Of a stretch of 54,157 nt of DNA, positions 6,264-52,949 are shown one piece after another (within the stretch, counting starts at the first letter, position 1; each line of letters starts with the position of its first letter). The notes beneath the pieces were generated by a model. The model had not been told where the DNA came from and did no database searches. It worked only from the letters and a program-made list of their open reading frames with translations. Position numbers and translations under genes: made by a program. This stretch comes from Candidatus Adlerbacteria bacterium (lineage in GTDB: Bacteria; Patescibacteriota; Minisyncoccia; Phycocordibacterales; SBAW01), in contig CAINNF010000020.1 of NCBI GenBank assembly GCA_903851045.1, forward strand, positions 1-54,157, read 5' to 3'.

Positions 6264-6303
6264 GAAAACTGAATACAGAAATTGTAACAAGATTACATCG
6301 CGT

Positions 6304-6333
6304 CCCGCGAAGCTCGAATAGAGCGACGTGGGG
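6304..6333 (+). repeat. GC-rich hairpin repeat, copy A (CGAAGCTC..GAGCGA core)
   Basis: cccgcgaagctcgaatagagcgacgtgggg. Outer CCCGCG/CGTGGG and inner GCTC/GAGC pairings. Shares its core with copies at 8238, 9086 and, reverse-complemented, 6339 and 16331. Confidence 0.55.
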
Positions 6334-6338
6334 CAAGC

Positions 6339-6368
6339 CCGCCGTCGCTCAAGCTATGGCGGGCAAGC
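6339..6368 (-). repeat. GC-rich hairpin repeat, copy B (opposite orientation)
   Basis: ccgccgtcgctcaagctatggcgggcaagc, with a CCGCC/GGCGG stem. It is 27/30 identical to 16331-16360 inside msrB. GCAAGC occurs on both flanks (6333-6338 and 6363-6368). Confidence 0.6.
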
Positions 6369-6462
6369 AAGACACCTAAAAAATCCTTCCGATTTTCCAC
6401 CGGGAGGCTCTCCACTACTCCACGAAGAGTGAGTGGGAGAAACAGTAAAAACGAATGAATAC

Positions 6463-6492
6463 GAGAAGCGAAATTTCTCTTGTTCCGTTTTA
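6463..6492 (+). other. 5' strand of the pre-16S processing stem (RNase III-type)
   Basis: gagaagcgaaatttctcttgttccgtttta pairs over ~28 bp with 8202-8233 (one mismatch, one bulge, one G-U; paired by hand). Confidence 0.7.
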
Positions 6493-6550: not shown

Positions 6551-8010
6551 TTTAATCAGAGTTTGATCCTAGCTCAGGATGAATGCTGGCGGCGTGGATG
6601 AGTCATGCAAGTCGAACGCCCCGCAAGGGGAGTGGCAGACGAGGTAGTAATACGCAGGTACGCACCGAAGAGTCGGGCATAGCTAGCCGAAAGGCTAGGT
6701 AATTCCCGATGGTCCCTCCGGGGTAAAGTTTTTTCGCTCTTTGAGCGGCCTGCGCGGTATCAGTTAGTTGGTGAGGTAATGGCTCACCAAGACGATGACA
6801 CCTAGGGGAGCTGAGAGGCTGACCCCCACCGATAGCACTGAGACACGGGCTATACATCTACGGATGGCTGCAGACGAGAATATTCCGCAATGGGCGAAAG
6901 CCTGACGGAGCGACGCCGCGTGGTTGATGAAGTCCTTCGGGACGTAAAAACCTTTTATGGAGGAGGAAATTTTGACGTTACTCCATGAATAAGGGGCTCC
7001 TAACTCTGTGCCAGCAGGAGCGGTAATACAGAGGCCCCAAGCATTATCCGGAATCACTGGGCGTAAAGGGTGTGTAGGCGGTCGTGTTAGTCTTTCGTAA
7101 AAGCTTTTCGGCTTAACCGAGAAACTGCGGAGGAAACGGCACGACTGAGAGGTTGCGAGAGGTAAAGGGAACTCATAGTGTAGGGGTGAAATCCGTTGAT
7201 ATTATGGGGAACACCAAATGCGAAGGCACTTTACTGGCGCACACCTGACGCTGAGACACGAAAGCGTGGGAATCGAACGGGATTAGATACCCCGGTAGTC
7301 CACGCCCTAAACGATCCGAACTAGCTTTACGGAGTATCGACCCTCTGTGAGGCGTAGCTAACGCGTTAAGTTCGGCGCCTGGGTAGTACGATCGCAAGAT
7401 TAAAACTCAAAGGAATAGACGGGGACTTGCACAAGCGGTGGATCATGCGGCTCAATTCGATGGCAAACGAAAAACCTCACCAGGGCTAGACATCCAGACG
7501 AAAATCCTCAGAAACGAGGACCTTCGCAAGACGGCTGGACAGGTGATGCATGGTCGTCGTCAGTTCGTGGCTTGAGTTGTTCCCTTCAGTGGGGTAACGA
7601 ACGCAACCCTCGTTGCCTGTTTTATTAGTCAGGCGAGACTGCCCCCTCACGGGGGAGGAAGGTGAGGATGACGCCAGATCAGCATGTCCCTCTGATGCCC
7701 TGGGCTGCACGCATGATACAATGGTCAAGACAACGGGTCGCGACGGGGTAACCCTGAGCTAATCCTTATAAACTTGGCCCCAGTTCGGATTGAGGTCTGC
7801 AACTCGACCTCATGAAGCCGGAATCGCTAGTAATCGCTGGTCAGCTATACAGCGGTGAATACGTTCTCAAGTCTTGTACTCACCGCCCGTCAACTCAAGG
7901 GAGTCGGGAGTACCCGAAGCCCGCCTTACGGCGGTCCACGGTAAACTCGATGACAGGGAGTAAGTCGTAACAAGGCACGGGTAGCGGAAGCTGCTCGTGG
8001 AATAATTCAA
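6551..8010 (+). rRNA. rrs: 16S ribosomal RNA, short and divergent; the 3' end is uncertain
   Basis: Landmarks: agagtttgatcctagctcag from 6558, gtgccagcaggagcggtaatac from 7008, attagataccccggtagtcc from 7282, aaactcaaaggaatagacgggg from 7403, tgtactcaccgcccgtca from 7875, aagtcgtaacaagg 7962-7975. Helix 45 is cacgggtagc-GGAA-gctgctcgtg at 7976-7999. Confidence 0.93.
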
Positions 8011-8201
8011 ATTGACTACGTTTTGTGCCTCAATTGAGCACAAAACTAATTGGCGATCTCATCACTTCGCAAGAAGAGATGTTAGGGATGATACTACTAA
8101 TCCTATATTGTAGTCGCTGTTCGAAAGGACGTACCTTCCATACGCGTCAGGAAGGAGATGACCTCTGTAGTATCTCTCTAAAATAGGGAGAGAACAGGAG
8201 G

Positions 8202-8233
8202 TAAAGAACGGAACAAGAGAAAGTTCGTTTCTC
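8202..8233 (+). other. 3' strand of the pre-16S processing stem
   Basis: taaagaacggaacaagagaaagttcgtttctc is complementary to 6463-6492. It lies ~200 nt past helix 45. Confidence 0.7.
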
Positions 8234-8237
8234 TTTT

Positions 8238-8270
8238 AGTCGACCGAAGCTCAAAGGAGCGAAGGCGACT
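8238..8270 (+). repeat. GC-rich hairpin repeat, copy C
   Basis: agtcgaccgaagctcaaaggagcgaaggcgact. Near-palindrome with the same CGAAGCTC..GAGCGAAGGCG core. Confidence 0.55.
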
Positions 8271-8371
8271 AGGTTGGCCCTACTTCGCATACAGCTACGT
8301 AGGGTACGGTGTGATCTCGTTACAAAAACCAGTAAAACCCCTGACGGGGATTTTCGGCGTTACTGTGTGTA

Positions 8372-8400
8372 TAAGAAAAAGACCGCCCTTTCGAGCGGCC
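8372..8400 (-). terminator. Probable intrinsic terminator of the minus-strand speD-like gene
   Basis: On the minus strand: gccgc-tcgaaag-ggcggt hairpin followed by ctttttcttat. Lies 30 nt downstream of the stop at 8430. Confidence 0.45.
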
Positions 8401-8429
8401 TTTCGTCACGCAGCGTCAGGCGCTGGAGA

Positions 8430-8918
8430 CTATTTGCGCAGGACACAGACGAACGAGTAGTCAGTGGCACCGAAGAACGCCCGCGCGAACTCCGCGACCA
8501 CCCACGGGTTGTAGTACTTGCAGGAGAAGATGTCGGGATACGCTGCGCCGGTTTGGTCGGCGAAGTGACCGGTGATACAAGATGTCTCGATAAGTTGGAC
8601 CAGCGAAAGTCCCGAGACCCTTGGGTCTTCGCCGAAGTTCACGACCACACAGTCACCGAAACGGTTCATGCCGATGAGCTCACAGAGCTCGATGGTGAAG
8701 CGCTCGACGGCGGCAGGGTCGCTGATCGTGCGAGGGTCGCAGTGATGGAGGTCGATGGAGGTCGACAATCCCCACGCGTCTTCTGCTTCGTACGCTGTTC
8801 GTATCGCAGTGTCGTCACGACTGGTGGCCAAGGGGTCGTCACTGTCGTATGCACCAAGCACTCGTGTCATCAATCCATCCTTCGTATCTTGGAGAAAAAG
8901 AACAGGTACCAGTACCAA
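8430..8918 (-). CDS. S-adenosylmethionine decarboxylase-like pyruvoyl enzyme (SpeD/SpeH family); substrate uncertain
   Basis: WGLSTSIDLHHCDP...LCELIGMNRFGDCVVVNFGEDPRVSGLSLVQLIETSCITGHF...AYPDIFSC aligns by eye with small bacterial/archaeal AdoMetDC proenzymes (..VISESHLTIHTWPE..). The start may be the internal ATG at 8870 (MTRVLGAYD...). Confidence 0.65.
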   Translation of the reverse strand: MVLVPVLFLQDTKDGLMTRVLGAYDSDDPLATSRDDTAIRTAYEAEDAWGLSTSIDLHHCDPRTISDPAAVERFTIELCELIGMNRFGDCVVVNFGEDPRVSGLSLVQLIETSCITGHFADQTGAAYPDIFSCKYYNPWVVAEFARAFFGATDYSFVCVLRK

Positions 8919-9037
8919 CTGGCGGTTTGTTTGCCGCTGGTAACCTGCGGTTCCAATACGGACGAAAATCAGTTTGCACCATATATACGATTAACGCAAG
9001 TTTTTTCACCGGGGGGCTGTGCATAAATGCTATTTTC

Positions 9038-9046
9038 TGCTACTAT
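9038..9046 (+). promoter_or_regulatory. Extended -10 box (TGcTACTAT) upstream of tRNA-Ile
   Basis: tgctactat lies ~67 nt upstream of the tRNA 5' end. Same box type as the other promoters in the window. Confidence 0.45.
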
Positions 9047-9085
9047 GGCGAGCGAAACTCACTAGTGTGGGCTTCTGCGGGTTTA

Positions 9086-9118
9086 CCCGCCGAAGCTCGC
9101 GTAGCGAGCGAAGGCGGG
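9086..9118 (+). repeat. GC-rich hairpin repeat, copy D (its 3' arm overlaps the tRNA-Ile acceptor stem)
   Basis: cccgccgaagctcgcgtagcgagcgaaggcggg, with outer CCCGCC/GGCGGG and inner GCTCGC/GCGAGC pairings. Confidence 0.55.
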
Positions 9119-9186
9119 CATAGCTCAGCTGGTAGAGCATTCGACTGATACTCGAAAGGTCCTAGGTTCGATCCCTAGTGCCCGCA
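9114..9186 (+). tRNA. tRNA-Ile (anticodon GAU); CCA not encoded
   Basis: Hand-folded cloverleaf. Acceptor GCGGGCA/UGCCCGC. D arm GCUC-AGCUGGUA-GAGC. Anticodon arm UUCGA-CUGAUAC-UCGAA. Variable loop AGGUC. T arm CUAGG-UUCGAUC-CCUAG. Discriminator A. Confidence 0.95.
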
Positions 9187-9202
9187 CAGAAACATACAGA
9201 TT

Positions 9203-16069: not shown

Positions 16070-16477
16070 ATGGACGACATGCCGACAACTGAAGAAGGGT
16101 GGAAGGAGAAGTTGACGCCCGAGCAGTATGCTATTTTGCGCGAGAAGGGGACGGAGGCACCCTTCTCAGGCAAGCTGGGTGCGCCGGGGCCGGATGGTCG
16201 GTACACTTGTGCTGCATGTGGCAACCCGCTCTTTGCGGCTGATGCGAAGTTCGAGTCCGGTACCGGCTGGCCAAGCTTTGACCAGGCGCTCCCGGGCGCG
16301 GTGAAGCTCATTCCCGACACCTCTCATGGCCAGCCGTCGCTGAAGCTATGGCCGGCAAGCATGTCTCGCACCGAGGTCGTCTGCTCTCGCTGCGGCTCGC
16401 ACCTCGGCCACGTCTTCGACGATGGTCCGACCGACACCGGCAAACGATACTGTCTCAACTCGATGTGTTTGTCGTAA
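16070..16477 (+). CDS. msrB: Peptide-methionine (R)-S-oxide reductase MsrB with a 10-aa insertion
   Basis: LTPEQYAILREKGTEAPFSG, CAACGNPLF, GWPSF, CSRCGSHLGHVFDDGP..GKRYCLNS. The canonical DTSHGMxRTEV is split as DTSHG-QPSLKLWPAS-MSRTEV. Confidence 0.9.
   Translation: MDDMPTTEEGWKEKLTPEQYAILREKGTEAPFSGKLGAPGPDGRYTCAACGNPLFAADAKFESGTGWPSFDQALPGAVKLIPDTSHGQPSLKLWPASMSRTEVVCSRCGSHLGHVFDDGPTDTGKRYCLNSMCLS
16331..16360 (-). repeat. GC-rich hairpin repeat, copy E, inserted in frame in msrB
   Basis: cagccgtcgctgaagctatggccggcaagc is 27/30 identical to 6339-6368. It encodes exactly the extra QPSLKLWPAS. Confidence 0.65.
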
Positions 16478-16491
16478 GAGCCGTACGAGAC

Positions 16492-16497
16492 TACAAT
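16492..16497 (+). promoter_or_regulatory. -10 box TACAAT, 7 nt before ATG 16505 (leaderless)
   Basis: tacaat 16492-16497; ATG 16505. Confidence 0.45.
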
Positions 16498-16504
16498 ATG
16501 CTAC

Positions 16505-16804
16505 ATGAGACTGCCCGTACTCGGGTGTTATGTCCTTGCCTATAGTGCTGCAGTTTTCGACGTTGTTTGTATCTCCCTTTTTCTCGCGTATGCCATCCGT
16601 CCATTCCCTTTCGCGCACTATTACGCCCTCGCAGGCGTCGTGGCGTCTGGTATTCTATATACCCGGTACATTATTTTTTTGAGTTGGCGCGGTCCGCAGT
16701 CAGGTGATATGCACAGAAGAGTAGTTTCTATTGAATATTTGGCGTTATGCGTATGCTGTGGGTTGGGGTATCTATTCGTGCTCGCGTACACCTATCAGTC
16801 CTGA
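16505..16804 (+). CDS. Small integral membrane protein (about 3 TM helices), function unknown
   Basis: Hydrophobic segments VLGCYVLAYSAAVFDVVCISLFLAY, YYALAGVVASGILYTRYIIFL and YLALCVCCGLGYLFVLAY. Confidence 0.5.
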   Translation: MRLPVLGCYVLAYSAAVFDVVCISLFLAYAIRPFPFAHYYALAGVVASGILYTRYIIFLSWRGPQSGDMHRRVVSIEYLALCVCCGLGYLFVLAYTYQS

Positions 16805-22040: not shown

Positions 22041-25000
22041 TTGCGCCCACCATGCATGCAAGCACCGATTACTATGTGGCGCACTAAAAGATGGAAACAG
22101 GTCGTCATGACGGTCGTGGCTCTTTGCGGTGTTGCCTACGTGCTGTGGCTCACGAGCGGTTTCGTATTGGCGTTTCGGCAAGTGAAGCGTGCTCATGTGT
22201 TCCCGACCAACGTTAACGCTATCGGTTGGAATAATGGCCAAGGCGCTCTGACGCAAGAGTTGCCGCCGCAGGCACCGTACGCGAGTTTTTTACAAAAAAA
22301 TTCCGCATATCTGTTCGTCGCGTCCTCTTCGTCAGCGATTATCGTACCGACCTCAGGCGGAGGAGGGGGAAGTGTTATCGATACGAGTCAACGTTCGGAT
22401 GGGACAACGAATGATGCATTAAGTGCGACCGCTACGCAAGCGACTACCACACAAGCGACTACCACACAAGCGGCCCCGACATCCCAGACATTTTCCGATG
22501 CCTCGACGACGCCCGCACAAGTGCCGGCTCCCGTCAGCGACACACCCGCTTCAGCCCCACTACCGACCTCATCAGACACGTCCTCACAGGTATTCTTGCC
22601 GATACCTCCCATCATCTCGCCTACGTCCACCCCCTCCACGCCCCCACCTCCGAGCGCTCCGGCACCGAGTAGTCAGGAGAGCACGACCACGAGCCTGCGT
22701 TCGGACCCCGCTTCGGACATGGCATTGCGGCTGGAACGAGTCGTTGCTGCGGTTTTCTCTGCTATCATCCCCCAAGCGTTTGCGACGTCGACCAGCGATA
22801 GCACCACGACACCAGTGGTCAGTACATCCACGCAAGATACGGACACGATTTCTGCGGCTCCCTCCGTGGACACTTCTGCGACTGCGGTCGCTACCTGTAC
22901 CGTGCTTGGAGACACGTGCCATATGTTGGAGTTCAGTGGTTTTTCGGTCGGAGGTTCTTTAACGAACAAAGAGTTTCAAAAAGCGGAGCTCAAGTTCTCG
23001 TTCGCACAGATGGCGAGCGAGTCGGACATGCGGGATGGGAAACTGTCGGTCCGCTACTTCCATAATGGACGGTGGCATAGTGCGGGGGAGATATATCTCA
23101 ACCAGGAACTGTCGAACGCGACGAACGGAGGCTATTTCACGCAGACGCTCGATGATGTCTCTGCGTGGGACGATCTAAGCGATATGCGAGTCGTGTTCGA
23201 GTATGAGCCGGGTGACGGTGCCAGTCCCGTGCAGCTCTACCTTGACGCAGTGTGGATCGACGCGGTCTATGTCGACCAGGTGCAGGACGTGCTCTCCGGC
23301 AATGTCAGTGACCCGACCGATGCTCCACAAAACATCTCGTTTGATGTTGCTTCGAACGTACAAGACTCGAACACGCTCATGTTGGACGATGGCAGCACGG
23401 TGTCGTTCCCGTTCCTGGATGCGCTCGATGATTCTTTGAGCGTACGTGTCGATCGGTCAACTTACCAAGGGTCGGCAACATCGACGGTCGTGTTCGCCAG
23501 CGTGACCAACACCGGGTCGAGCAAGGATACGTTCACCCTGTTCGCCTCGTTCCCTGGTGCGGTCGGGTCGGTGGCCGATGTGGCACAGTATCTGCGAAAT
23601 GTTCCGAACGAAGCGACCACGACCCAGACGAGCGACGTGACCTACTACTGCGATGTGGGATGGCAGCTCGCGTCGTCGATCGGACAGTACACCTGTGCTT
23701 CGACCAACGAAACGTATGTGTGTTCGACGGTGAGCGATACGAAAGCGAATTGTTTGGTGTCGAACGTGCCGGTCGGGGTCTCGACCAGTACGACCTATGG
23801 CAGTCAGTGGGTGTCGATGGGTATACATACAACGTCAGGCGTAGATGCGAAGGTCTCATCAGGATTACCCAAGGGGTATCAGATCGCCTATACGAGCGAC
23901 CGGTCGTTCGATGTCTTACCGGGACAGACGGTATATTTTCGCGTGACGCTCTCGACCCCCGACACGGGCAAGGTACGTTTCGTGTTATCGGCGAAAGGGG
24001 ATAACTACTTCGGCGATGTCGACTCCATGCGTCTGCAAAGCGGGACCTACCTTAAAGCGCAATCGAAGATCAAACAACAGACCAAGACGAAGCATGACTA
24101 TCTCAACGACCAGCTTTCGGAACAGTCGGACTTTAATGTCGACGAGTTGCCACAGTTCCACTTCAAGTTCAAGACACAGCGTGACTTCTTCACACGAGTG
24201 AAGGATTTCTTGTTCGGCAGGACCGTGCCCTATGCCGTACGGAGCGCACACCTGCGTCACGCGAGCGGCGAGATCGAGCATTTGCCGGTCGATATCGAGT
24301 ACGGAGCAAATGATGAGTGGACGCTCAAGCTCGAGAAACAGCAACGAGCCTTTCGTCCCGGCAAATATTCGATAGATCTCTCGATGCAAGAGGGTGGCAC
24401 TTCTTATGTCGATACGGTCGACTTCTACTGGGGTGTGCTCGCGATGAACCCCGATAAGTCGTCCTATGCGCCGGGCGAGACGGCCCACTTCGACATCGGT
24501 GCGCTCGATGATAAAGGTGACACGATGTGCGATGCGCAACTACTGCTGTCGGTCACCGACCCATCGGGCAACACGAGCGATGTGCCTGTGGTGAGCGGTG
24601 GTGGCTGCGGGAAGAATAACGTCACCTCGTTGCCCGACTTCGTCGCAGACTACACCACGAAGGACGAAGGGACGTACTCGCTCACATTGTCTCGACTCGA
24701 CGATGCGGGCAATATCGTGACCAGTGTGAGCAACGCGCTGACGGTCGTTAAGAGTGCACCGTACACGATCACCCGCACGGGGCCGACACGCATCTACCCG
24801 AAGTCGGCTTACCTGATGCAGATGCATATCGATGCGCCGCAAGGGTTCACCGGCAGCGTGGTCGAGACGCTGCCGGAAGGGTTCACGGTCACCGCGACGG
24901 ACGGTGCGGTGCTGTCGCGTGTGAATGGGGCCATCGATCTCACCTGGAACGTCTCTATAACGAACGGCGGTGGGAAGGACCTTTCGTACACCTTCAAAGC

Positions 25001-28000
25001 TCCCGAAGTGAGTCCGTACATGTACGCGCTCGGGCCACTGCAGCTGAACGACACCACCGGTACCGTCTTTACCGAAGGTCGGGCATGGCAGATCGCATCG
25101 GACGCCACCGCGATAGCGACGGGAGTAGCCTGGCTCGCGGGGAACGCGACCACCTTCGGCTCGAACCTGAGCAGCACCACCGCGTCTGCGCTGACGTGGA
25201 ATCTTTCGGCAGATTATGATTCAGCCTACTATGCATACTCGAGTAGCTCGCCTTCGCAGTTGGTCATCAATAAACCCGGAGATTACTTAGTGGCTTTGAC
25301 GCTGCCGATGGAGTCTACTGCAGCAGGAAGTTTCCGCACCGCTATCGAAGCCGACATACGCGTCAACGGCAACAAAGTGAACGCGGGAGTGTCGCGCGGG
25401 TATATTAGGACAAACAGCACTATGTTCGAGGTCTCAGATCACTTGTACCTGTTGCTACATAATCTGAACACCGGAGACTATATCGAGAGTTATGTGCACA
25501 ATCTGAGCACCAACAACGACACTATTAACATCGGTACTCAGGCAAGTCTGTACGCCGAGTATATCGACAACAGTCAAAATGTGTACTTTGGCGTCGGCAC
25601 CACAACTTCAAATGGTACCAATCTTAACCCCACAGCAAGTTCGACGGTGGTGTGGTACGATGACCCGACGCTTGGTAGAAAAGATTCGAATTATACGCAC
25701 ACGAATACTGACAACGCAGCTTCGAGCACGATCACACTTGCTGCCGCGGGGTCGTACTTGGTGTTGGTGAACGTTCCTCTGGATGGCGCAGTCACGAGTG
25801 CGAGTCCACGAGCCGATGTGCTGCTCAACAACATAAACGCGAGCGGCGCCGAATTTAAACAAGGATATATCGCCAATAGTACTGGTGTCACCGACTCGTC
25901 CTTGCAGTTTAGTGGTGTGGTAACGGCGACCACGACCAATGAGAGACTCCAGGTGAACCTCATCGTAGCTGGTGCAACAGGGGCGCTCACCGCGCTGAAC
26001 GATCAAGCATCGATCTATATCCAGCAACTACCCGCTTCAGGGATATATGTCGCGTCAGCGACGTCGACCTCCAACAACCTCACCACCAGTAATAACTGGA
26101 ACATTACTCCCGCGACAACCACACTGTGGACCACCGATCTTATCAAAGACGCGACCATATATGCCCACTCTACTTCGACACGATCGCAGCAGATCACCGT
26201 CGGCGCACCGGGCGACTACCTCTTGGCGCTCAACGACTCGCACACGGTCAACACCACGGTGACGAACCAGATAACGCAGGTGTTAGTGAACGGCACTCCT
26301 GTTGTTGGGGCGCAGACGAAATCGCATGACATCTACGCTAACACGCAAACGTCGGGTTCGTTGGTGTATCTCTTGCGCAACTTGGCTGCAAGTAGCACGG
26401 TAACGGTCACTACGGTATTAGACTCTGCAACGGGTATAGCGGTTGAAGACAAACCAGCGCTGCTCATGTTGTGGCACAAATCGGCGCAGAGTTCCTTCAT
26501 ACAAGATACGGAACGATGGTATACGAACGTCAACGCCGAACCACCCACCGACCCATGGCCGTCGGGCGGTATCGACCTGAACGAAGGCGACCCCATCACC
26601 ACGGGTGTTGCGGTGAAGTCGGGAGATGTCCTGCGCCTTCGTATGGCGCTCACGGCAAACGTGAACACGATCGCGGGTGCGGACTCGTTCAAACTCCAAT
26701 ATGCGCCGGGGACGACGTGCTCGCTCGCGCTCGCATGGACGGACGTCGGTGCTATCGGCAGCGGCTCCATCTGGCGCGGGTACCACAACGCAGCGCTCTC
26801 GGCGGGGCAAACGCTCTCGACGACCACGCTCTCGGTATCGTCCACGACCGAGACGTACGAAGAGCAGAACCCTTCTGCGGTCACGCCGCACTCGGTCGTT
26901 GTTGGGACGGACGCCGAGTGGGATTGGGTGTTGCAGGATAATGGCGCGTCGGTCGGGACCAACTACTGCTTCCGTATGGTGCAGTCCAGCGGACAGGTGC
27001 TCAAGGACTACAACGATTATCCGCAGCTCATCACGAACAACACGCCCGATGTGCCGACGCTTGATGCACCGTTCGATAACGAGAAGACCGCGAGCACGAG
27101 TCCATGGTTCACGTTCACGACGTCGGACGACAATGGTGATGATATCCATTACGAGGTCCAAGTGAGTACGGACCCTGCGTTCGGTTCCACGGTCATCGAC
27201 GAGGATTCCGCGACCTATTACACTAAATTTACGAATACGACGAACTCGGCGGACAAAGCTCCGTTCGGTGGTGGCCAGATCATCCAGTACACTCCGACGA
27301 TCTCACTTTCCAGTGGTACGACCTATTGGTGGCGGGTGCGCGCGAAGGACCCGAACGGGACGAACACCTGGAGCAGTTATTCGTCGGCGCAAAGTGTGAC
27401 GATCGATTCGTCGGTTACGGTGTCGACCTGGTTCCAAACGACACAAGGGCAGTTCGCGAACGACACGCTTTCGAACGTGAGCGCAACGGGTTCAAACGAT
27501 GTGCAGCTGTCGGGAGCGAACACGAGCGGTACCATCTATTCGCCGCCGATTGACTATACGGTGCACACCTCGGGCAACTCGTGGGGCACCGTGTCGTGGA
27601 CGAACACGCAAAGCGCGGGTAATACCATCACGTACCATGTCGAATATTTTACATCGACGAGTACATGGGCGGTCATTCCCAATAGCGATCTGCCGGGCAA
27701 CTCGACCGGGACGACGACGGGACCCATTATTCTGACGCAACTGGATCCAAGCGTGTACAATCTTATCCGTGTTCGAGGCGATTTTGTGAAGACCACGACG
27801 ACCCCGATACTCAGCGATTGGACCGTCTCGTGGGCACTTTCCGTCGCTCAGCCGTCGCTCATAACCTTGTTCGATAACGAAAAGACGGCGACAACGACGC
27901 CGACGTTCACGTTCACGACGACCGACCCGCAAGGGGATGATCTGCAGTATCAGCTCGAATGGTCGACCGATGCGACGTTCGCGACCGGTGTGACGATACG

Positions 28001-31000
28001 CACTTCGGGTACCGACCCTGGCTTTCTGAACACCGCATCATCTACCGATACATCACCGTTCGTATCGGGCAACACCGTTAGTTTTACGGTACAATCCGCT
28101 GATCGGCTCGCGAGCAGTACGACCTATTGGTGGCGCGTGCGCGCCGAGGATCCCAACGGAGGAAAAGCCTACTCGCTGTGGTCATCACCGCAGAGCTTTA
28201 CAACCGACACAACCGTACAGTCTTCGACCTGGTTCCAAACGACGAACGATCAATTTGGCGAAGACTTTCTCACACGCACCGGTACTTCGGGTGGTGGCGT
28301 GACCGCGACCTCGACGACCGGCAATATCGCCATCTATCGTGCGAACGCCGGGAACGACCCGATCACCACCGCTACGTTCAACAACTATTGGGATACGACG
28401 GTGCGCCAAGACAGTATCTTCTCGCTTCCCAGCACGACGACCATCCAACTACTTGCAACGGGTCACTACGCGGTCATGTACGGGTTGCGGTTCCGTTCAT
28501 CCAGCGGCACGAACCGTTCTGAGATCCAATCATATCTCAACCTCGCTGGTAACAGTCTCCCGATCGGTTGGTCACAGGCGTTCATCCGGCGCAATGGTGC
28601 TGCCACCCAAGGCTTCTCCTCGGGAGGGGGTATCATCAATGTGACGAGTTACAACGCACCGCTCATCGTACAATCCTTCAGGACCGATACGAACACGACG
28701 GCGGGTGTGATGCGAGAGGCGACGTCGTCCGGCGTATCGATCATCAAGTTGGATGATGCGTGGAGTTATGCGCGTTTGAGCAAAGCGACCAAGCAGACAG
28801 GGCCGATCTCGACGTCATGGATGCCCGTGACCTGGGACCACGAGGATGAGATTGACACGACCGCCTACGCCCACGCAAGTGGTGCCAGTGGCCTGACGCT
28901 CAAGAACCCTGGGCACTATCTGGTGTTCGCGAACACGTACGGATCGCTCAGAACCAACGTTTCCTCTATGGTCGACCAGAAGCTGAAGCTCGACAATGCC
29001 GATATCGACGGCAGCTTTACGACGGTGTTCATGAACGGTAACGCGAACTCCGACGGTGACTACCAAGGTGCCGCATCGGTCGGCACCATCATCCAGTCGA
29101 CGACCACGAACCAGGTGTTGACCGTCCAGGTGGCGCGCAGTCTCGGTACGGCGGCGTGGACGATCGACGGGACGTTCAGTGGTGCGTACGTCAACCGCTC
29201 GGGACTCACGGTGGTGAAGCTTCCTGATGCGGATTTTATTCGTCTGCAAAATTCGACGAGCACGAACATGGACCCGACCGCACTCACACCACTCACGTGG
29301 AATACCGAAGCCGAGAAGGATGCCTCGTTCACACACAGTACGACCACTACCACGAACAAAATCACCGTGAACACTGCGGGTGATTACCTGTTCCTTACGG
29401 CCAACTACGCGGCACCCGGTACGACCGCGAACGCACAGCCGATGCAGGGGTGGCGCAAGAACGCCGGTACGCTCGAGTTGTACGGGCAATCCGGGAGCTT
29501 CAATAGCACCGCGGTCACCGACACCGGCTCGTTCGGTGGTATCGTGTACCCCGGCGTTGCGGCCACTGACTACTTCGAATCCATCGCCCAGGCGCGCGGC
29601 ACCACGGGCACCGTGGGCGAGACGAAAAAAGGTATACAGGGGCTGCGTATCGGGTCACTCGCTGAAGCGGATACGAATCCAAAGACGGTCGAGTCTCCCG
29701 ACATCGTATTTAGTAGTGGTACCGGACCGAAATGGTCGACATTCTCGTGGAACGACTCGCGACCCGCATCGACGAATATCGTCTACCAGGTACTGTACCT
29801 CACCGCCTCCAGTACCTATGCGCTCGTGCCGGACGCGGTACTCCCTGGCAACTTCAACGGCTTCTCTACGACGTCGTCATCGGTGAATATCAGCAACCTG
29901 AACCGCACGACCTATGGGACACTGCGTACACTCGCCACCTTCACCTGTGCCGCAGGTAATTGTCCGACGCTCAACGACTGGACGGTCAGCTGGGCGCAGG
30001 GCATCAACGTGTCGGGTATCGCAAAGACGTTCGATCAGTCGACCAATGCCACCTACGGCACGGTCGGGGTCGCGGTCAATGGCGTCCTGCAAGCAGGGAA
30101 GACCGGTACCATCTCCTCCAGCGGTACCTGGACGATACCGAACGTGACGGCGTTCACAGGTGACGTCATCACTGTGTTCGTGAGTACGACCACGAGCGCG
30201 ACCCGTGCGGTCGCGGTCACCAAATATACTAGTACGAACGACATCACCGGCATGAAGCTCTACCAGATGCACCTTACGCTCGGCTCCGACGATAACCCGA
30301 CGCTCACGAACACCGACATCTCCCAGTACGACAATTCGGTCTCGGGTAACAGCGCCATCTTCGATGATGTGTCTGGCGGGACTCTCAATGTGTGCGCAGG
30401 CACCGCGTGTGCGAACGCGCGGCTTCTTGTCTCGTCCGGCACTGTGTATGAGCCGGGGGCCTCGGGTGGTAACGTGACGACACCGAATATACAAATCGAT
30501 GGGACACTCATTGCTGATGCGAATACGATTACCGTCACTCGCTCGTGGAAGAATAATGCCACGTTCAACAAAGGTTCATCCACGGTCATCTTCGCTGCAA
30601 CCAGTACGAACGAAAGTATTGATTCGACCAACGCGACGTCGAGTGCGGCGTTCAACAATGTGACGTTCGGCCAGACCTCAAGCACTGCGACATGGACCCT
30701 ACTGAGTCCGCTCTACGCGAGCAGTACGCTTGCAATCAATTATGGGACACTGCAAAACGGCGCGAATCCGATGGTACTCTCGGGCGACTTAACCATAGGG
30801 GCGAGTGGTTACTTCAGTCATGGTACCGGCACGACCACGTTCATGGGGACGGGGACTAATGTATGGACCGACAATAATTCGACCACCCAAGATATGGGCA
30901 CGGTCGTCATCGATGGTACGACGAAGACGGTGCAACTTGGTTCTGCCGTCAAGGCGACGAACATAACCATCGGCGCTGATGATACGCTCAATGCGAGCAG

Positions 31001-34000
31001 TGGCAACTACGGTATTACCGTCACTGGTAATTGGACGAACAACAATGTGTTTACTGCGCAGAACGGCACCGTGACCTTCGTCGCGACGACGACGGGCAAG
31101 ACCATCACGCCAGGCACATCAAGTTTTTATAACCTTACCTTCAATGGTGCTGGAGGCAACTGGGCGTTCGCGGGCGGTACGGTGACGGTTGGGAACAACT
31201 TCACCGTAGCGACCGGTACGGTCACGCTCCCGACCGGCACCACGACCGTGGCAGGATCCTTTGACGCATCAGGTGGTATTTTTGTGCACAACAACGGTGC
31301 CGTGTTGTTCACGTCGGGGCTATCGCAGACCATCAACCCAGGCGTGTCGAGCTTCTACGACCTCGCGTTCAACGGGTCGGGTGCATGGACCTTTACCGGT
31401 ACCAACGCGACCAGTTCGCGCAACACCACCATAACGTCCGGCAGTGTGACATTGCCGTCCGGCATCTTTGCTGTCGGCGGATCGTTCATAAAGAATGGCG
31501 GCTCGTTCTCGCACAACAACGGCACGATCAAGTTCACCGCCTCGACCGCACAAACGATCAACCTTAACGCGTCGAGCGCCTACAACCTGCTGTTCACGGG
31601 GAGTGGCGCCTGGGCATTCCTCGATACGAACGCGACGATTGGTGGTTCGGTCACGTTCCAAGGTGGTACGACAACACTTCCTTCAGGTACGCTCACCATA
31701 GGCGGATCCTTGGTCAGTGCTGGTGGTGCCTTTGCACATAACAACGGTACGGTCAGCTTTACCGCGGCATCGACCGGGTTTGCGGTGACCCCCGGCTCCT
31801 CATCGTTCTACAACCTCATATTCAACTCATCGTCCGGTGGTTGGACCATCACGGGTAATGCGACCTCGACGAACAACACGACGATCAACAGTGCTTCGAG
31901 TTGGACGTTGAACCCTGGTACGACGCTCGCGGTCGGCGGAACGTTCGCTAACAATGTCGGCGGCTCGACGACGACCTTCACCAATTCGACGCTCTACCTC
32001 AATTCAGGCACGAGTTATTCTCTGGATACGAAAACCGCGGGCGGGGATGTGTACGGCACGCTCCTCGTCGGTGCGAACACGAACGTCCGCATGTGGAACT
32101 CCTCGGCTGCGACCACGACGGTCAACTCGACCGGCTCGCTCTACTCGCAGAACCATGCGGGCGTATCTGGAGCGCTCTATATATATGGAGCATTCACGAG
32201 TTCGAGCAACGAATACTGGAGCTACTCGAATGACTTCGATGGGACGGCGCTCACGGGCGGCAGTCAGCGCCAGGTGCAAGTACGTATCGCGAGCAGCTCG
32301 AGCGTCACCTTCTCGGGAGGGACGCTCAAGATGGTCGGAACCACCACCGCCACGACCACGATCAGCAACCAGGGTATCGGCACCTATTCGTTCAGTGTCA
32401 CGGGGGGTACGCTCAATGCGCAGTATTACCAGATAAGTAGTACGACGGCGGCAGGACTCTCCCTGTCGGGTACGACGAACATCACATCGCTCAGTAATGG
32501 CGACTTCACGTTGTCGCTTCCGACCGGGGGCACCTCGATGACCATCAACTCGACCGTGATCGACCAGAATCCACTCCTCCAGATCCAACAGGTTCGATTC
32601 GCGACCTCGACCGGTGTCACGAGCGGATACAACGTGACCGAAGTCGGTACGCCAGCCTCGTACTGGTGGTTCAGGAATCACTACGGCAACTTCGCGGGAG
32701 AGGCGTACGATAATGATCCAGGTGGTAACCCCGGCTACATCCGATGGGACGACTCTGGGTACAACATCACCGTATCGGGTCACGTCTATGCGGACCACGG
32801 GTCGACGCTGATTGGTAATCCGCCGTGCGATGGCTCGACGGCTGTCGTGACGCTCGTGGTCGGAACGACCACTTACTCTGGTTCGTGCGGTCTGCTCACT
32901 GGTGCGTACAGTATCTCGAACGTGCAGTTCACTGGTGATGTCGACCTCGTCGCCTATCTGAACACCAACGGTGGTAAGCGCGCGGTCACGGTGACCAAGA
33001 CGCCGACCGCGAGCATCTCCGACCTCGATCTCTATCAGAATTCCCTTATCGTCCGACACGAAGGAGTGACGCCTATCACGATCACCGATCTCGCAGGGTT
33101 CGATTCCACGCGCGACTCGGACGTGTTCTTCGCCGCCGCGACCAGCACCATGACGCTCGTCACGCAACCGAACACCGAACTGTATGTGTGGCAGGGCAAG
33201 ACGTTCGCGCCAGGTGGAAATGTGACGCTCCAGTCAGGAGGGTCGGGGAGCGCGCTCGATGGCCGTCTCTATCTTGCGACGAACGCGACCTTCACAGCGG
33301 TCGGTACGCAGTCGCACTCGATCGGCGGAGGTCTAACGATCGGTTCGGGCGCGACCTTCACGGCGGCGAACTCGACGGTGACCTTCACGGCGACCACGAC
33401 GGGCAAGTCCATCACTGCTTCGTCGCCACTCACGCTGTATAACCTTGTGTTCAACGGTACGGGCGGTCAGTGGTCGCTCGATAGCAGTGCGCTCACGACC
33501 GTGACCCATGCGCTCACGATGACCGCCGGCACATTGGTTGGGACGGGAGACATGACCGTCCAGTCAGGCGATGTGACCGGTAGTGGCACCATAGCAATGA
33601 CCAATGGTACGTTCACGATCAGTAGTACCGGCAACTTCGGGTCGAGTAATACGTGGCAATTCAAGAACCTAACCTTCGGGGATGGTGTGTCTACCAACAC
33701 GACGACGAAGACCGGTGCAGGTACGACGACGGTGACCGGCGCATTGACCATCGCCACGAACCAGACGCTCAATGCAAGTTCCTCCGCTTGGTTGCTCACG
33801 GGTGGCGGAACGCCGTTCGTTATCGGTGGCACGCTCAATCCGCAAAGTGCTCCGTTCACCTATGCGGCCACCACCGCCACCACTATCGCGAACGCCAATT
33901 ACGCCGCGCTCATATTGGCACCCTCGGGTGCTGGAAGTCCGACCTACACGCTCAGTGGTGGCACGCCGACCATCGGGATTCTTACCGTGGGCGACGGAGC

Positions 34001-39767: not shown

Positions 39768-39788
39768 TCGATCGTTAGTACGCGTTTT

Positions 39789-40499
39789 ATGCACACTTAT
39801 ATGAAAAAAACACTTACAAAGATACGATCACTTATTAGAAACCGTTGGTTCGTCATGGGCGTGGCGGCGTGCGTGGTGGTTGCCGGAGGAACGTGGTGGT
39901 TCAGCAAGAGCGCTGAAACACGATTCGCGCACGCATACACGAACTACCAGATCGCGGCTGCCGTGCAGCAGAACGCGACGTTCACTCCTGGGGCGAGCGC
40001 GAACCCGCTGCGTGAGTCGTTGAACCAAACACTTGCGCTCCTTTTGACGAAAGAGACGAAGGATACCGAACGTCTCACGCTCGCGACACAAGGCCTGCAA
40101 CTGATCGCTCAGATGAACAAAGAGGTAGATGCGATAGGGGACGCCGCACCAGCCGTCGCGAGTACGATAGACGCCATGCAAGCAGCCGCCCAGAGTCCTG
40201 GGAACCTGCTCCACCGACCCGCGATGGTACGGATGGTGGATCTCGCGCGCAAACAGATGTCGACCATCGAGGATATCCGAGGACTCTCGTACCGTGCGAA
40301 TTTCGAGATCACACAGATATGCGACCATATCATCGCTGACAAGGGTGCGTTGACCAACGAGTACACGATAGAGCTCAATGACGCTCTGCCTGCCATGGGA
40401 TCGGAGTTCGACAAGCGGGAGAATGCCTATACCGACCTGCAGACCAACATGTTCGACATCCAACAGTCTTTCGCTGGATTTTCGGGCAGCGTACTGTAG
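39789..40499 (+). CDS. Membrane-anchored helical hypothetical protein
   Basis: N-terminal basic region + TM helix (WFVMGVAACVVVAGGTWWF), the rest alpha-helical with low complexity. Alternative start ATG 39801 (MKKTLTK...). Confidence 0.6.
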   Translation: MHTYMKKTLTKIRSLIRNRWFVMGVAACVVVAGGTWWFSKSAETRFAHAYTNYQIAAAVQQNATFTPGASANPLRESLNQTLALLLTKETKDTERLTLATQGLQLIAQMNKEVDAIGDAAPAVASTIDAMQAAAQSPGNLLHRPAMVRMVDLARKQMSTIEDIRGLSYRANFEITQICDHIIADKGALTNEYTIELNDALPAMGSEFDKRENAYTDLQTNMFDIQQSFAGFSGSVL

Positions 40500-51660: not shown

Positions 51661-52458
51661 TCAGGAAGAGAGCGGTAGGGGAGCGTCGATCGGCAAGGGG
51701 GTATTTATATGCGATATGGTCGTTGTTGAGAAGTATGGGTCGCTGGTAAAGAGTAAGTACCGCACATCGAAACTGTGTGGGTCAATCCACACATCGACGG
51801 TGCCGTTCTTCCCGATACGACCGACAAGCGCATTGAGCGGGCCATCACTGATCCCGAACGCACTTTTTGAAAGCGTGAAGGTGTACCGTAGAAGCGGTTC
51901 GTTACCCCAGCGTTCGAGACCATGGTTTTTGAGCAGGGAAAGATAGGCGCCGTTTTGAGCAAGCAACGTCAGATTATCTTGGATAGGTCCTGCGATAGCG
52001 ATGCTCGTGTAGTTACCCGGTATGGTGGTGTCGGTAAAGTGTTTCCATTGCGGAGTTCGTTGTATGGATGCCTGCAAAACTGGGTCACGAGAGTCTACCT
52101 TTATATAGACGTCGTTTCCTATAGAGACATCCCAGTGAGTGAACGAGTGTCCGATCGTGTCTGCTCCTATAAAGAGGGTTGTGGTCGAGTATGACCCGAA
52201 ACGTTGCTGCGCATGGTCCACGTCGTAGGTGCCAACTATCTGGAGCGTTCGATCGCCGATCTTGGTCCGTGTCTCGACATACTGAGTGTACGAAGTGACG
52301 GAGGGTACCTTAGCGAACGCGTGTCGGATGGGTGCATCGAGTCCCGATTGAGAGGTGTGAGTCAGTTGGAACACGCACCATGCGCCCACGCTGACAGCGA
52401 CGAGGGCAAGGGCCGCGACGACAGAGATCTTCTTCCTTTTGGAGGTGTTTTTAAGCAC
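51661..52458 (-). CDS. Membrane-anchored hypothetical protein (extracytoplasmic beta-rich domain)
   Basis: The ORF is open to 52617, but that stretch overlaps the divergent gene and has no in-frame ATG. A GTG at 52458 gives (M)LKNTSKRKKISVVAALALVAVSVGAWCVF, a basic + TM N-terminus. No motif recognised. Confidence 0.55.
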   Translation of the reverse strand: MLKNTSKRKKISVVAALALVAVSVGAWCVFQLTHTSQSGLDAPIRHAFAKVPSVTSYTQYVETRTKIGDRTLQIVGTYDVDHAQQRFGSYSTTTLFIGADTIGHSFTHWDVSIGNDVYIKVDSRDPVLQASIQRTPQWKHFTDTTIPGNYTSIAIAGPIQDNLTLLAQNGAYLSLLKNHGLERWGNEPLLRYTFTLSKSAFGISDGPLNALVGRIGKNGTVDVWIDPHSFDVRYLLFTSDPYFSTTTISHINTPLPIDAPLPLSS

Positions 52459-52529
52459 CTCTTCATCATACGCTACTTGTCCACAGGTTATATATAAGTT
52501 GTCAACACGTAGGATACAATAAATCAAGG

Positions 52530-52569
52530 AATCTCGGCACTCGAGATTCGCATCTCGGCACCCGAGATT
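52530..52569 (+). promoter_or_regulatory. Two tandem near-identical palindromes (operator-like, or 5'-UTR hairpins) immediately upstream of the HTH gene
   Basis: aatctcg-gcact-cgagatt (52530-52548) and atctcgg-cac-ccgagat(t) (52552-52569). The ATG at 52575 lies 5 nt downstream. Confidence 0.5.
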
Positions 52570-52574
52570 GTTGT

Positions 52575-52949
52575 ATGGCAAAGGAAAAATACATTTCTCT
52601 GAAAGAAGCGGCCGCACAGTCTGGATATACTGCAGATTATGTGGGCCAACTCATACGTCGCGGTAAGCTCCCTGGTAAACAGGTTTTTTCGCATGTCGCG
52701 TGGATGACGACCGAAGAGGCGTTGCAAGAATATATAAAGAAGAATAAGAAAGATGTCGCACAACCTAATCCTGTAAGTTGGAAAGAGAAGCTCATCGATT
52801 CGTTCGACTTTTCGCTGATATCGAAGGTTATCTTAGGAGCGACAATCGCATTCGTTGCGATATTCATCCTCTTCCTTATATATATCTTCTCGGTCAGCAT
52901 TGATAGGAATATAAACAATACCTATCAGCAGAAACTCGAACGCGTATGA
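52575..52949 (+). CDS. Membrane-anchored helix-turn-helix protein (excisionase/MerR-type HTH + one TM helix)
   Basis: ISLKEAAAQSGYTADYVGQLIRRGKLPGKQV is an HTH. TM helix VILGATIAFVAIFILFLIYIF. Its stop overlaps the next ATG (ATGA at 52946-52949). Confidence 0.7.
   Translation: MAKEKYISLKEAAAQSGYTADYVGQLIRRGKLPGKQVFSHVAWMTTEEALQEYIKKNKKDVAQPNPVSWKEKLIDSFDFSLISKVILGATIAFVAIFILFLIYIFSVSIDRNINNTYQQKLERV

What the first reader, a model, noticed from the sequence alone, without database searches (positions are those of the whole stretch)
16331..16360. A 30-nt hairpin repeat is inserted in frame in msrB and belongs to a small repeat family around the rRNA and tRNA genes
Seen:
- cagccgtcgctgaagctatggccggcaagc (16331-16360) is 27/30 identical to ccgccgtcgctcaagctatggcgggcaagc (6339-6368), upstream of the 16S.
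- In msrB it encodes exactly the extra residues QPSLKLWPAS. These split the otherwise canonical DTSHG|MxRTEV motif; compare B. subtilis ..LDTSHGMIRTEV...
- The reverse complement shares the core AGCT..GAGCGA(A/C)GGCGGG with three further hairpins: 6304-6333, 8238-8270 and 9086-9118. The last of these overlaps the tRNA-Ile 5' end.

Established: Rickettsia palindromic elements are a precedent for selfish palindromic repeats inserted in frame in protein genes.

Inference: this is a comparable miniature element family, tolerated as a surface loop in MsrB.
Basis: partly seen in the sequence, partly recalled or inferred. Interest (0 to 1): 0.7.

Follow-up and report, generated by a model that had tools for sequence, protein, structure and literature searches.

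The report
Tiny hairpin element inside msrB
A 30-base hairpin-forming DNA repeat sits in frame in the msrB repair-enzyme gene of a pond bacterium and adds a floppy 10-residue loop. It belongs to an apparently undescribed 31-base element whose core sequence is the same in more than twenty bacterial phyla, and related copies occupy the same codon of msrB in other lineages.

Summary
Bases 16331-16360 match 6339-6368 at 27/30, and they add QPSLKLWPAS between SHG and MSRTEV of MsrB. The insert is identical in at least four independent assemblies. A syntenic relative with 85% nucleotide identity has a clean empty site.

The family is not small or lineage-specific. A degenerate pattern of the repeat hit at least 119 genomes (scan truncated; about 4 hits expected by chance) in more than 20 phyla. 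The unit is a sharply bounded 31-nt sequence, YCCKC-CTTCGCT-R-AAGCT-WCG-GMGGR-CAAGC, with an invariant core and a covarying outer stem.

In candidate-phyla-radiation genomes it lies in frame in alanine racemase, TsaD, TGT, GltX, UvrC and other genes. Four of its six reading frames are open.

Several more distant MsrB orthologues carry related but different variants (30-nt and 33-nt types) at exactly the same codon, with insert-free near relatives. One allele is a recombination mosaic. This is therefore not a simple ancestral loop.

The insert maps to a low-confidence β-hairpin loop that is also longer in mammalian MsrB2. No mobilising enzyme, target duplication, Rfam family or publication was found.

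Verdict: a REP/RPE-like selfish nano-element, a new variant of a known kind.

The parts
16331..16360 (+). In-frame copy of the hairpin element in msrB. It encodes QPSLKLWPAS, and its stem is weakened by an A·C mismatch.
   Evidence: 27/30 to 6339-6368. Covariance-model hit 16329-16362, 44.7 bits, E 7.5e-13. Exact 30-nt gap in relatives L005 and L006. Fold z about 0.
16070..16477 (+). msrB (peptide-methionine (R)-S-oxide reductase, SelR domain), the host gene.
   Evidence: ORF. PF01641. PDB MsrB matches down to E 2e-34. AlphaFold2 model with the insert in a pLDDT<50 loop, residues 86-97.
6337..6370 (+). Canonical intergenic copy upstream of the 16S gene. It belongs to the same rare 'CGTCGCT...ATG' sub-variant as the msrB copy.
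   Evidence: Model hit 47.5 bits, E 8e-14. Stable hairpin, -10.8 kcal/mol, z -2.9.
6302..6333 (-). Degenerate copy in the opposite orientation. With 6337-6370 it forms an inverted doublet.
   Evidence: Model hit 14.5 bits, E 0.008. The doublet folds at -20.7 kcal/mol, z -3.3.
8244..8265 (-).
   Evidence: Model hit 8.9 bits, E 0.59, core only. Hairpin.
8278..8304 (+). It is the inverted partner of 8244-8265.
   Evidence: Model hit 15.6 bits, E 0.0035.
9079..9119 (-). Variant copy with an enlarged apical stem, directly abutting tRNA-Ile. On the tRNA strand its 3' arm is tRNA bases 1-5.
   Evidence: Model hit 22.6 bits, E 1.6e-5. tRNA-Ile at 9114-9187. Fold -14.7 kcal/mol, z -4.1. The same layout occurs at a tRNA-Gly in L100.
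51802..51831 (+). Possible decayed relic with a truncated core, inside a 318-aa ORF on the minus strand.
   Evidence: Model hit 17.8 bits, E 6.5e-4. ORF 51661-52617 (-). Uncertain.

Best explanation
The 30 nt in msrB are a copy of a very small, non-coding, hairpin-forming repeat element of the REP/RPE kind.

What is shown:
- The family unit is a sharply bounded 31-nt sequence: a 5-6-bp variable, covarying outer stem, an invariant 16-nt core (CTTCGCT-R-AAGCT-WCG) and a CAAGC tail.
- A copy of the genome's own sub-variant occupies the Gly|Met junction of a β-hairpin turn of MsrB. A near-twin lies 10 kb away, upstream of the 16S gene.
- The net gain is exactly 30 nt.
- The element is open in four of its six frames, so the gene stays intact.
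- The extra ten residues are modelled as a disordered surface loop. The enzyme presumably still works.

What is inferred:
- The copy entered msrB after the split from the nearest sampled relative.
- The element spreads as a folded single strand, moved in trans by an enzyme that was not identified here.
- Once present, the filled allele also moves between related lineages by homologous recombination.
- Copies decay in place. The msrB copy has already lost stem stability.
For: The event is discrete.
- Relatives L005 and L006 are syntenic, with 85% nucleotide identity. They lack exactly these 30 nt and show no other disturbance.
- A second clean pair exists in another lineage. L007 is filled. L153 and L154 are identical around the site but empty.

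The family is real.
- The pattern scan gave at least 119 loci, against about 4 expected by chance (my estimate from 19 base-equivalents over 596 Gb).
- The logo has zero information outside positions -5 to +25.
- In the outer stem, 92% of cells are paired against 80.5% in shuffles. Double-sided changes occur in 87 cells against 33.

The msrB copy matches the genome's own variant.
- It is 27/30 identical to the local intergenic copy. Both carry the G(+1)/T(+14) pair, seen in 12 of 123 family members.
- A further 30/31-identical copy lies in another sequence context in the same ponds.

In-frame copies are common in other genes. They occur in Ala racemase, TsaD, a class II aaRS, TGT, GltX (twice), a Pyr_redox enzyme, PfkB and UvrC.

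Four of six frames are open in at least 90% of copies.

The site tolerates an insert.
- Residues 86-97 have pLDDT<50 and lie between strands 78-83 and 100-105.
- Mouse MsrB2 has a naturally longer loop at the same place.

Both orientations occur inside genes. That argues against an mRNA-level function.
Against: - No mobilising enzyme was found. Crude motif scans of 935 kb around the copies found no RAYT/IS200-type HUH motif and no DUF559-like gene. They found only one distant small GIY-YIG gene. No gene family recurs beside the copies.
- There is no target-site duplication and no flank consensus.
The copy number in this genome is therefore unknown.
- Related variants sit at exactly the same nucleotide position of msrB in several lineages. 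Random insertion plus selection does not easily explain that.
- Three msrB lineages share a 30/30-identical insert while their flanks are only 78-82% identical. This hints at constraint or a homing-like process, not neutral junk.
Confidence: 0.65

Rival explanations
1. One ancient insertion: a hairpin element entered msrB once in an ancestor of this Patescibacteria-like MsrB clade. Today's patchy pattern would come from many precise losses plus homologous recombination between alleles. Gene conversion from other genomic copies would have reshaped the insert.
For: - All inserts are at the identical nucleotide position after GGC.
- L007, L132 and L149 share the same imperfect stem, 30/30 nt, which suggests one origin for those three.
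- L007 is a demonstrable recombination mosaic, so the msrB gene tree overstates the number of events.
- The element ends in GC and follows GGC, giving a 2-bp direct repeat that could support precise slippage loss.
Against: - Seven insert-bearers among 109 sequences need 7 changes on the tree, at least 5 of them forced by well-supported branches. Dozens of precise losses would be needed.
- At least three distinct element types occupy the site: the 30-nt 'CTTCGCT' type, the window's 'CGTCGCT...ATG' sub-variant, and the 33-nt 'CTTCGCC-AAAA-GGCTTCG' type. Each also exists as dispersed copies elsewhere.
- The window's copy matches its own genome's intergenic copy better (27/30) than it matches the L007 msrB insert (about 21/30, counted by eye from the sequences).
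Confidence: 0.2
2. Host function: the hairpin or the ten-residue loop is kept in msrB because it does something. It could be a regulatory or stabilising mRNA structure, a translational pause, or a functional protein loop.
For: - The insert is 30/30 identical, synonymous sites included, in three lineages whose flanks differ by about 20%.
- There is a compensatory stem change between the L007 and L011 inserts: T-A to C-G at positions -2/+17.
- Eukaryotic MsrB2 and MsrB3 also have a longer loop here.
Against: - Only 7 distinct proteins among the 120 closest MsrB homologues carry an insert. The nearest relatives of each filled allele lack it.
- The window's own copy has lost hairpin stability.
- The same element occurs in either orientation and in four frames in unrelated genes and between genes.
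- The loop is modelled as disordered.
Confidence: 0.08
3. Assembly or chimera artefact: the 30 nt were introduced by mis-assembly across a repeat.
For: The repeat has near-identical copies elsewhere in the same metagenomes.
Against: - The sequence is identical in independent assemblies from different samples and two studies, on contigs up to 44.8 kb at depth 50, with no alternative joint.
- It is in frame.
- Homologous inserts occur in other lineages.
Confidence: 0.01

Closest known systems
Rickettsia palindromic elements (RPE; Ogata et al. 2000, recalled from general knowledge and as summarised in PMC3733652)
   Same: Palindromic repeats found both between genes and in frame inside intact housekeeping genes. 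They add surface peptide segments without destroying the protein. No transposase of their own is known.
   Different: - RPE-1 is about 100-150 bp and confined to Rickettsia.
- This unit is 30-31 nt, and its core is conserved across more than 20 phyla.
- No sequence relation to RPEs was tested or seen.
REP / REPIN elements mobilised by RAYT transposases, including intragenic GTAG and CGTC REPs (Di Nocera et al. 2013, PMC3733652)
   Same: - It is a 20-40-bp GC-rich imperfect palindrome.
- It often occurs as inverted doublets (6302-6370 and 8244-8304 here).
- It is dispersed, mostly between genes and sometimes inside genes. That paper reports REPs inside genes of several species, many in replication and repair genes.
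   Different: - There is no GTAG tag.
- It does not fit the CGTC families, which have a terminal CGTC, an 8-9-bp stem starting with AT and a CCA tail.
- No RAYT gene lies beside any of 124 copies.
- REP families are species- or genus-specific, whereas this core is the same across phyla.
- In some Verrucomicrobiota it sits inside or between GTAG-type REP hairpins as a separate module.
Small dispersed repeats of Nostocaceae ('very small mobile repeated elements', Elhai et al. 2008; recalled from memory and named in an earlier scan note, not read here)
   Same: Units of a few tens of bases with sharp ends and no coding capacity. They are found nested in other repeats and hairpins, and their mobilising mechanism is unknown.
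   Different: Those are cyanobacterial, 21-27 nt, and have other sequences. No comparison was run here.
MITEs such as the Correia/NEMIS elements of Neisseria
   Same: Non-autonomous, hairpin-forming, and sometimes co-transcribed or translated.
   Different: MITEs have terminal inverted repeats matched to an IS transposase and make target-site duplications. Neither is seen here.

Membership tests
MsrB / SelR (PF01641), the host gene | SelR domain with two CxxC zinc motifs and the catalytic RYCxNS cysteine. | tested here: met
   PF01641 on the gene. PDB MsrB hits down to E 2e-34. C47/C50, C105/C108 and C128 are invariant in the alignment.
Rickettsia palindromic elements | Palindromic repeat present in frame in intact protein genes and also between genes. 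| tested here: met
   msrB. Alr, TsaD, TGT, GltX, UvrC and others. Intergenic copies.
Rickettsia palindromic elements | Length of about 100-150 bp (RPE-1) and sequence relation to the Rickettsia families. | tested here: not met
   The unit is 30-31 nt. The length criterion comes from general knowledge. Sequence relation was not tested.
REP / REPIN-RAYT | Short GC-rich imperfect palindrome, dispersed, often in inverted doublets. | tested here: met
   (doublets at 6302-6370 and 8244-8304).
REP / REPIN-RAYT | Conserved GTAG tetranucleotide at one end of the hairpin. | tested here: not met
   GTAG/CTAC within 40 nt of the element occurs in 10-14 of 119 copies, about the chance level (my estimate). 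The flank logo carries no information.
REP / REPIN-RAYT | A RAYT (IS200-like Y1) gene flanked by copies of the same repeat somewhere in the genome. | tested here: inconclusive
   A regex scan found no HUH-type motif in 935 kb around 124 copies or in the window. The window's whole genome could not be searched. Earlier scan notes report RAYT loci with other REP types in this genome; this was not checked here.
CGTC-tagged REPs (PMC3733652) | Terminal unpaired CGTC, an 8-9-bp stem beginning with A/T pairs, a 4-5-nt loop and a CCA tail. | tested here: not met
   Here the stem is YCCKC (5-6 bp), CGTC is internal and found only in a minority variant, and the tail is CAAGC.
MITE | Terminal inverted repeats of an IS element plus a target-site duplication. 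| tested here: not met
   Two filled/empty pairs show no duplication beyond a 1-2-nt ambiguity. No IS is nearby.
Any Rfam family | Match to a curated covariance model. | tested here: not met
   The window at gathering score gave only the 16S and the tRNA. Seven loci carrying canonical copies, searched at E<=1, gave nothing on the element.
Hairpin-plus-nuclease cassettes (DUF559 or small GIY-YIG), proposed in earlier scan notes | A small nuclease gene bracketed by, or next to, the hairpins. | tested here: inconclusive
   Crude motif scans found no DUF559-like ORF. They found one 95-aa GIY-YIG ORF, 4.4 kb from the element in L081. No profile search was run.

The most novel reading that the evidence does not exclude
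The 31-nt hairpin may be a pan-bacterial 'nano-element' propagated by a conserved, still unidentified machinery that recognises the invariant core and tail.

On this reading it inserts in a structure- or site-directed way. That would explain several observations:
- Different variants repeatedly land on the very same nucleotide of msrB, and on the same loop of TsaD.
- In one filled/empty pair, the 31-nt unit appears to replace one target base (GGT to GGC plus 30 nt). If that is general, the net gain would always be 30 nt.
- Some copies sit at the apex of pre-existing hairpins.

This would be a homing-like behaviour without an encoded endonuclease.
Probability: 0.25. Interest if true: 0.85.

Novelty: new variant of a known kind. 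Interest (0 to 1): 0.6.

Why it matters
- In-frame palindromic repeats are usually treated as a curiosity of Rickettsia and a few REP-rich species. Here the same phenomenon involves a unit of only 30-31 nt. Its core is the same from Patescibacteria to Verrucomicrobiota, Planctomycetota, Bacteroidota and Pseudomonadota.
- That breadth points to a conserved but unknown propagation mechanism, or to very wide horizontal spread.
- Practically, it explains recurrent peptides in proteins from metagenome-assembled genomes, such as PPSLKLRRAS, AFAKATADK, LARRSFSEGG and SYGGQA.
- It warns that such inserts distort alignments and gene trees.
- It marks which protein loops tolerate insertions.
- If the same-site recurrence reflects targeting, it would be a new way for minimal DNA to home.

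Tried and rejected
No genome-wide count could be made in the window's own assembly.

SECIS element: MsrB can be a selenoprotein, but the insert lies 30 codons upstream of the catalytic Cys and there is no UGA. Rejected by inspection.

Rfam: no family matched.

Literature searched by element DNA and peptide strings: nothing relevant. Keyword searches gave only the general REP and RPE literature.

Other sequence collections:
- BLAST of the consensus against plasmids and phages gave no hit.
- Only 13 IMG/VR viral contigs matched the pattern.

Mobiliser and insertion signature:
- RAYT, DUF559 and GIY-YIG neighbours were not found by motif scans.
- All-against-all clustering of neighbouring ORFs gave no recurrent partner. 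An apparent ABC-F cluster was mostly coincidence.
- No target-site duplication or target consensus was found.

tRNA and rRNA association:
- 12 of 124 copies lie within 250 nt of a tRNA gene.
- That is roughly what a preference for non-coding DNA predicts, so I do not treat it as specific.
- Two cases where the tRNA 5' end forms the hairpin's 3' arm are noted but unexplained.

Orientation against GC skew: 53 to 40, Wilcoxon p 0.03. Too weak to use.

Other ideas tested:
- The idea that the outer stem is copied from the target does not fit the msrB empty sites.
- Resemblances to boxA or to tmRNA tags were judged coincidental, from memory only.
- No RNA run holds this organism, so transcript-level tests were impossible.
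- The metagenome scan for type-I inserts at the msrB junction gave only 4 loci, 3 of them already known.

Full report
**Observation.** Window bases 16331-16360 (CAGCCGTCGCTGAAGCTATGGCCGGCAAGC) match 6339-6368 at 27 of 30 positions. No such match occurred in 100 dinucleotide-preserving shuffles. The stretch lies in a 135-codon ORF, 16070-16477 on the plus strand, which is a typical MsrB (PF01641). Its best solved relatives are MsrB structures at E values down to 2e-34. The 30 nt encode QPSLKLWPAS between SHG and MSRTEV.

The 16S gene is at 6551-8012 and tRNA-Ile at 9114-9187.

**Not an artefact.** The exact protein is called on 16 contigs. Loci from four assemblies carry the identical gene. Contigs of four pond-metagenome runs cover 16150-16550 with no difference, one at depth 50 on a 44.8-kb contig.

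**Empty site.** The closest homologue (P0003, 125 aa) comes from syntenic contigs L005 and L006, where msrB is followed by the signal peptidase, HSP20 and 508-aa genes. The gene is 85% identical at the DNA level. It lacks exactly these 30 nt: TCTCACG|GCATGTCT against TCTCATG[30 nt]GCATGTCT. The junction is ambiguous by two bases (GC), and there is no duplication.

**What the repeat is.** A pattern covering the two window copies and the inserts of two other msrB genes was CKKCGCTNAAGCTNNGNNSGRCAAGC, which I count as about 19 base-equivalents. I estimate about 4 chance hits for it in 596 Gb.

By record title the hits come from:
- Pseudomonadota (18)
- Verrucomicrobiota (16)
- Bacteroidota (16)
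- Planctomycetota (12)
- Acidobacteriota (6)
- about 25 candidate-phyla-radiation lineages
- a dozen further phyla

Some hits are on megabase contigs and some in isolates. One hit, in Streptomyces, lacks the stem and is probably a chance match.

Aligned in register, the copies show a unit with sharp ends. Information content is essentially zero outside positions -5 to +25, apart from a weak C preference at +26. Inside it reads YCCKC-CTTCGCT-R-AAGCT-WCG-GMGGR-CAAGC.

The outer five pairs covary:
- Position -5/+20 is C-G in 63 copies and T-A in 38.
- Position -2/+17 is G-C in 50, T-A in 38 and C-G in 13.
- Overall, 92% of cells pair against 80.5% in shuffles.
- Double-sided changes occur in 87 cells against 33.
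- Slid registers fall to 29-46% paired.

On the opposite strand the hairpin reads stem-C-G(W)A-GC-UUYA-GC-GAA-G-stem. That is a symmetric 3x3 purine-rich internal loop under a tetraloop.

No Rfam family matches. No paper in the library contains the element's DNA or peptide strings. The consensus finds nothing among plasmids or phages. Only 13 IMG/VR contigs hold the pattern.

**Copies in the window.** A covariance model built from 98 copies gave these hits in the window:

| Coordinates | Strand | Bits | E-value |
|---|---|---|---|
| 6337-6370 | + | 47.5 | 8.3e-14 |
| 16329-16362 | + | 44.7 | 7.5e-13 |
| 9079-9119 | - | 22.6 | 1.6e-5 |
| 51802-51831 | + | 17.8 | 6.5e-4 |
| 8278-8304 | + | 15.6 | 0.0035 |
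| 6302-6333 | - | 14.5 | 0.008 |
| 8244-8265 | - | 8.9 | 0.59 |

The rRNA region therefore holds two inverted doublets, 6302-6370 and 8244-8304. They lie just outside the 27-nt, 93%-complementary stem that brackets the 16S gene (6463-6489 with 8207-8233). There is also a variant whose 3' arm is the first five bases of tRNA-Ile. The same layout occurs at a tRNA-Gly in an alphaproteobacterial MAG (L100).

Twelve of 124 copies lie within 250 nt of a tRNA gene. I estimate that this is about what a preference for non-coding DNA would give, so I do not read it as a specific link.

**In-frame copies are common.** Among the pattern hits, the element lies inside:
- alanine racemase
- TsaD
- a class II aminoacyl-tRNA synthetase
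- TGT
- GltX (two copies in one protein)
- a pyridine-nucleotide disulphide oxidoreductase
- a PfkB kinase
- UvrC

These were confirmed by Pfam. Both orientations occur. Four of the six frames are open in at least 90% of copies. They give PPSLKLRRAS, (P/S)xFAKAxxxK, LARRSFSEGG and LPAVALAKA.

**The msrB site in other lineages.** Of the 120 closest MsrB homologues, 8 carry an insert (7 distinct proteins), always between G and M/S of the same turn:
- PTSLKLRRAS (P0004, P0005)
- PTALKLRGTS (P0008)
- PPALGFGEAS (P0010)
- PPSPKGFGGAS (P0014)
- PPSPEGFGRAS (P0066)

At the DNA level all lie directly after GGC. They are members of the same superfamily but of different types:
- the consensus 30-nt type
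- the window's G(+1)/T(+14) sub-variant, seen in 12 of 123 copies
- a 33-nt type with a GCC/GGC inner stem, which is itself dispersed in other genomes

With the insert columns removed, the seven insert-bearers need seven changes on a 109-sequence tree, and at least five are forced by well-supported branches.

That count is inflated by recombination. L007 (filled) is 100% identical to L133 (empty) over the first 221 and the last roughly 85 alignment columns. Between them it carries a patch identical to L153 and L154 (empty), except for one substitution, GGT to GGC at the junction, and the 30 nt. This gives a second clean filled/empty pair. It also shows that alleles are shuffled among close relatives.

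L007, L132 and L149 share a 30/30-identical insert, although their flanks are only 78-82% identical. Part of that is explained by the family-wide constraint on the core, but it remains notable.

A junction-specific scan of the metagenome collection found only four loci with the 30-nt type in msrB, so filled alleles are rare.

A second gene behaves the same way. In TsaD, PSFAKASEGK-type inserts occur in 4 of 120 homologues at one position of a hypervariable loop, and the nearest relatives again lack them.

**Structure.** An AlphaFold2 model (mean pLDDT 70.9) places residues 88-97 within a pLDDT<50 segment, 86-97. This segment lies between strands 78-83 and 100-105. Mouse MsrB2 (2l1u) has a naturally longer loop at the same place.

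The msrB copy has two substitutions in one stem pair and no longer folds better than shuffles (z +0.3 and -0.4 on the two strands). The intergenic twin folds well (-10.8 kcal/mol, z -2.9).

**Mechanism.** The following are shown:
- discrete gain of 30 nt
- family membership
- tolerance in a disordered loop
- decay of the stem
- recombination between alleles

Mobility as a folded single strand, moved in trans, is inferred. I could not name the enzyme:
- No RAYT-type HUH motif and no DUF559-like ORF were found in 935 kb of flanks. Only one distant small GIY-YIG ORF was found.
- No gene recurs beside the copies.
- There is no GTAG tag.
- The CGTC-REP definition is not met.

Flank-to-flank pairing of 7 bp or more is about twice the shuffled expectation (17 against about 8). 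Some copies therefore sit at the apex of older hairpins, including GTAG-type REPs in Verrucomicrobiota. The bias of orientation against GC skew is weak.

**Rivals.** I give a single ancient insertion with many precise losses about 0.2. It explains the shared site and the identical inserts of one subclade, but not the different element types or the window copy's likeness to its own genome's variant. A host function gets 0.08 and an artefact 0.01.

The most novel reading still open is a homing-like, structure- or site-directed nano-element with a conserved unknown machinery (0.25).

**Comparison with earlier scan notes.** These are leads only. Notes on this genome report other in-frame hairpin families and RAYT loci. 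A note on another genome describes a 30-base hairpin in about a hundred candidate-phyla-radiation genomes, probably this element. Others propose DUF559 or GIY-YIG partners for other hairpin families, which my crude scans did not find here.

**Limits.**
- The genome-collection scan was truncated.
- No RNA data exist for this organism.
- The organism's placement in the Patescibacteria rests on homologue names and earlier notes.

Noticed in passing
window 6463-6489 and 8207-8233: 27-nt arms, 93% complementary, bracket the 16S gene (6551-8012). They probably form the RNase III-type processing stem. The hairpin doublets lie just outside it on both sides.
   Followed up: partly
window 8012-9114: 1.1 kb separates the 16S gene from tRNA-Ile. 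This stretch holds a reverse-strand ORF (about 8400-8880) annotated as AdoMet decarboxylase-like. No 23S gene is in the window, so the rRNA operon seems split.
   Followed up: no
window about 22100-39800 (L001 16038 onward): A giant gene (product 5886 residues on record) has internal repeats of about 2.3-2.4 kb (31758-37292) and many short threonine/glycine-rich repeat families.
   Followed up: no
L007 4342-4773 compared with L133, L153 and L154: The msrB of one groundwater lineage is a recombination mosaic. Its ends are identical to one allele, and a central patch of about 70-100 nt is identical to another. Only the mosaic carries the hairpin insert.
   Followed up: yes
Pond metagenome contigs (runs X1 and X3) matching window 16330-16360 only: A short contig at about one seventh of the organism's depth carries a 30/31-identical copy of the element between unrelated flanks (…ATCGTCGCT | element | CTGCCTTCAGC…). 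This is a near-twin copy in another context or organism.
   Followed up: no
L125 (Saccharibacteria GltX): One glutamyl-tRNA synthetase carries two in-frame copies of the element (KPSFAKASEGKP and WPAFAKVSAGKK).
   Followed up: partly
TsaD homologues P0123-P0242, loop between GHLYSFLL and FPAIxLVVSGGHT: This loop is hypervariable. Besides the hairpin element (4 of 120), many homologues carry low-complexity inserts such as SNFKFQISK or IRNSKIDSKFKIQNSK. These look like translated AT-rich repeats.
   Followed up: no
L014 and L047; L039 and L098 (Verrucomicrobiota, Opitutaceae): The 31-nt element sits in the apex of, or between, longer GTAG-tagged REP-like hairpins. In these genomes it behaves as a separate module nested in another repeat family.
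   Followed up: partly
L046 1940-2180; L093 4800-4863: Head-to-tail tandem arrays of two or three 30-nt units of the element.
   Followed up: no
L100 6409-6442 and window 9079-9119: In two unrelated genomes the conserved core abuts base +1 of a tRNA gene (Gly, Ile). The tRNA's first five bases serve as the hairpin's 3' arm. This is unexplained.
   Followed up: partly
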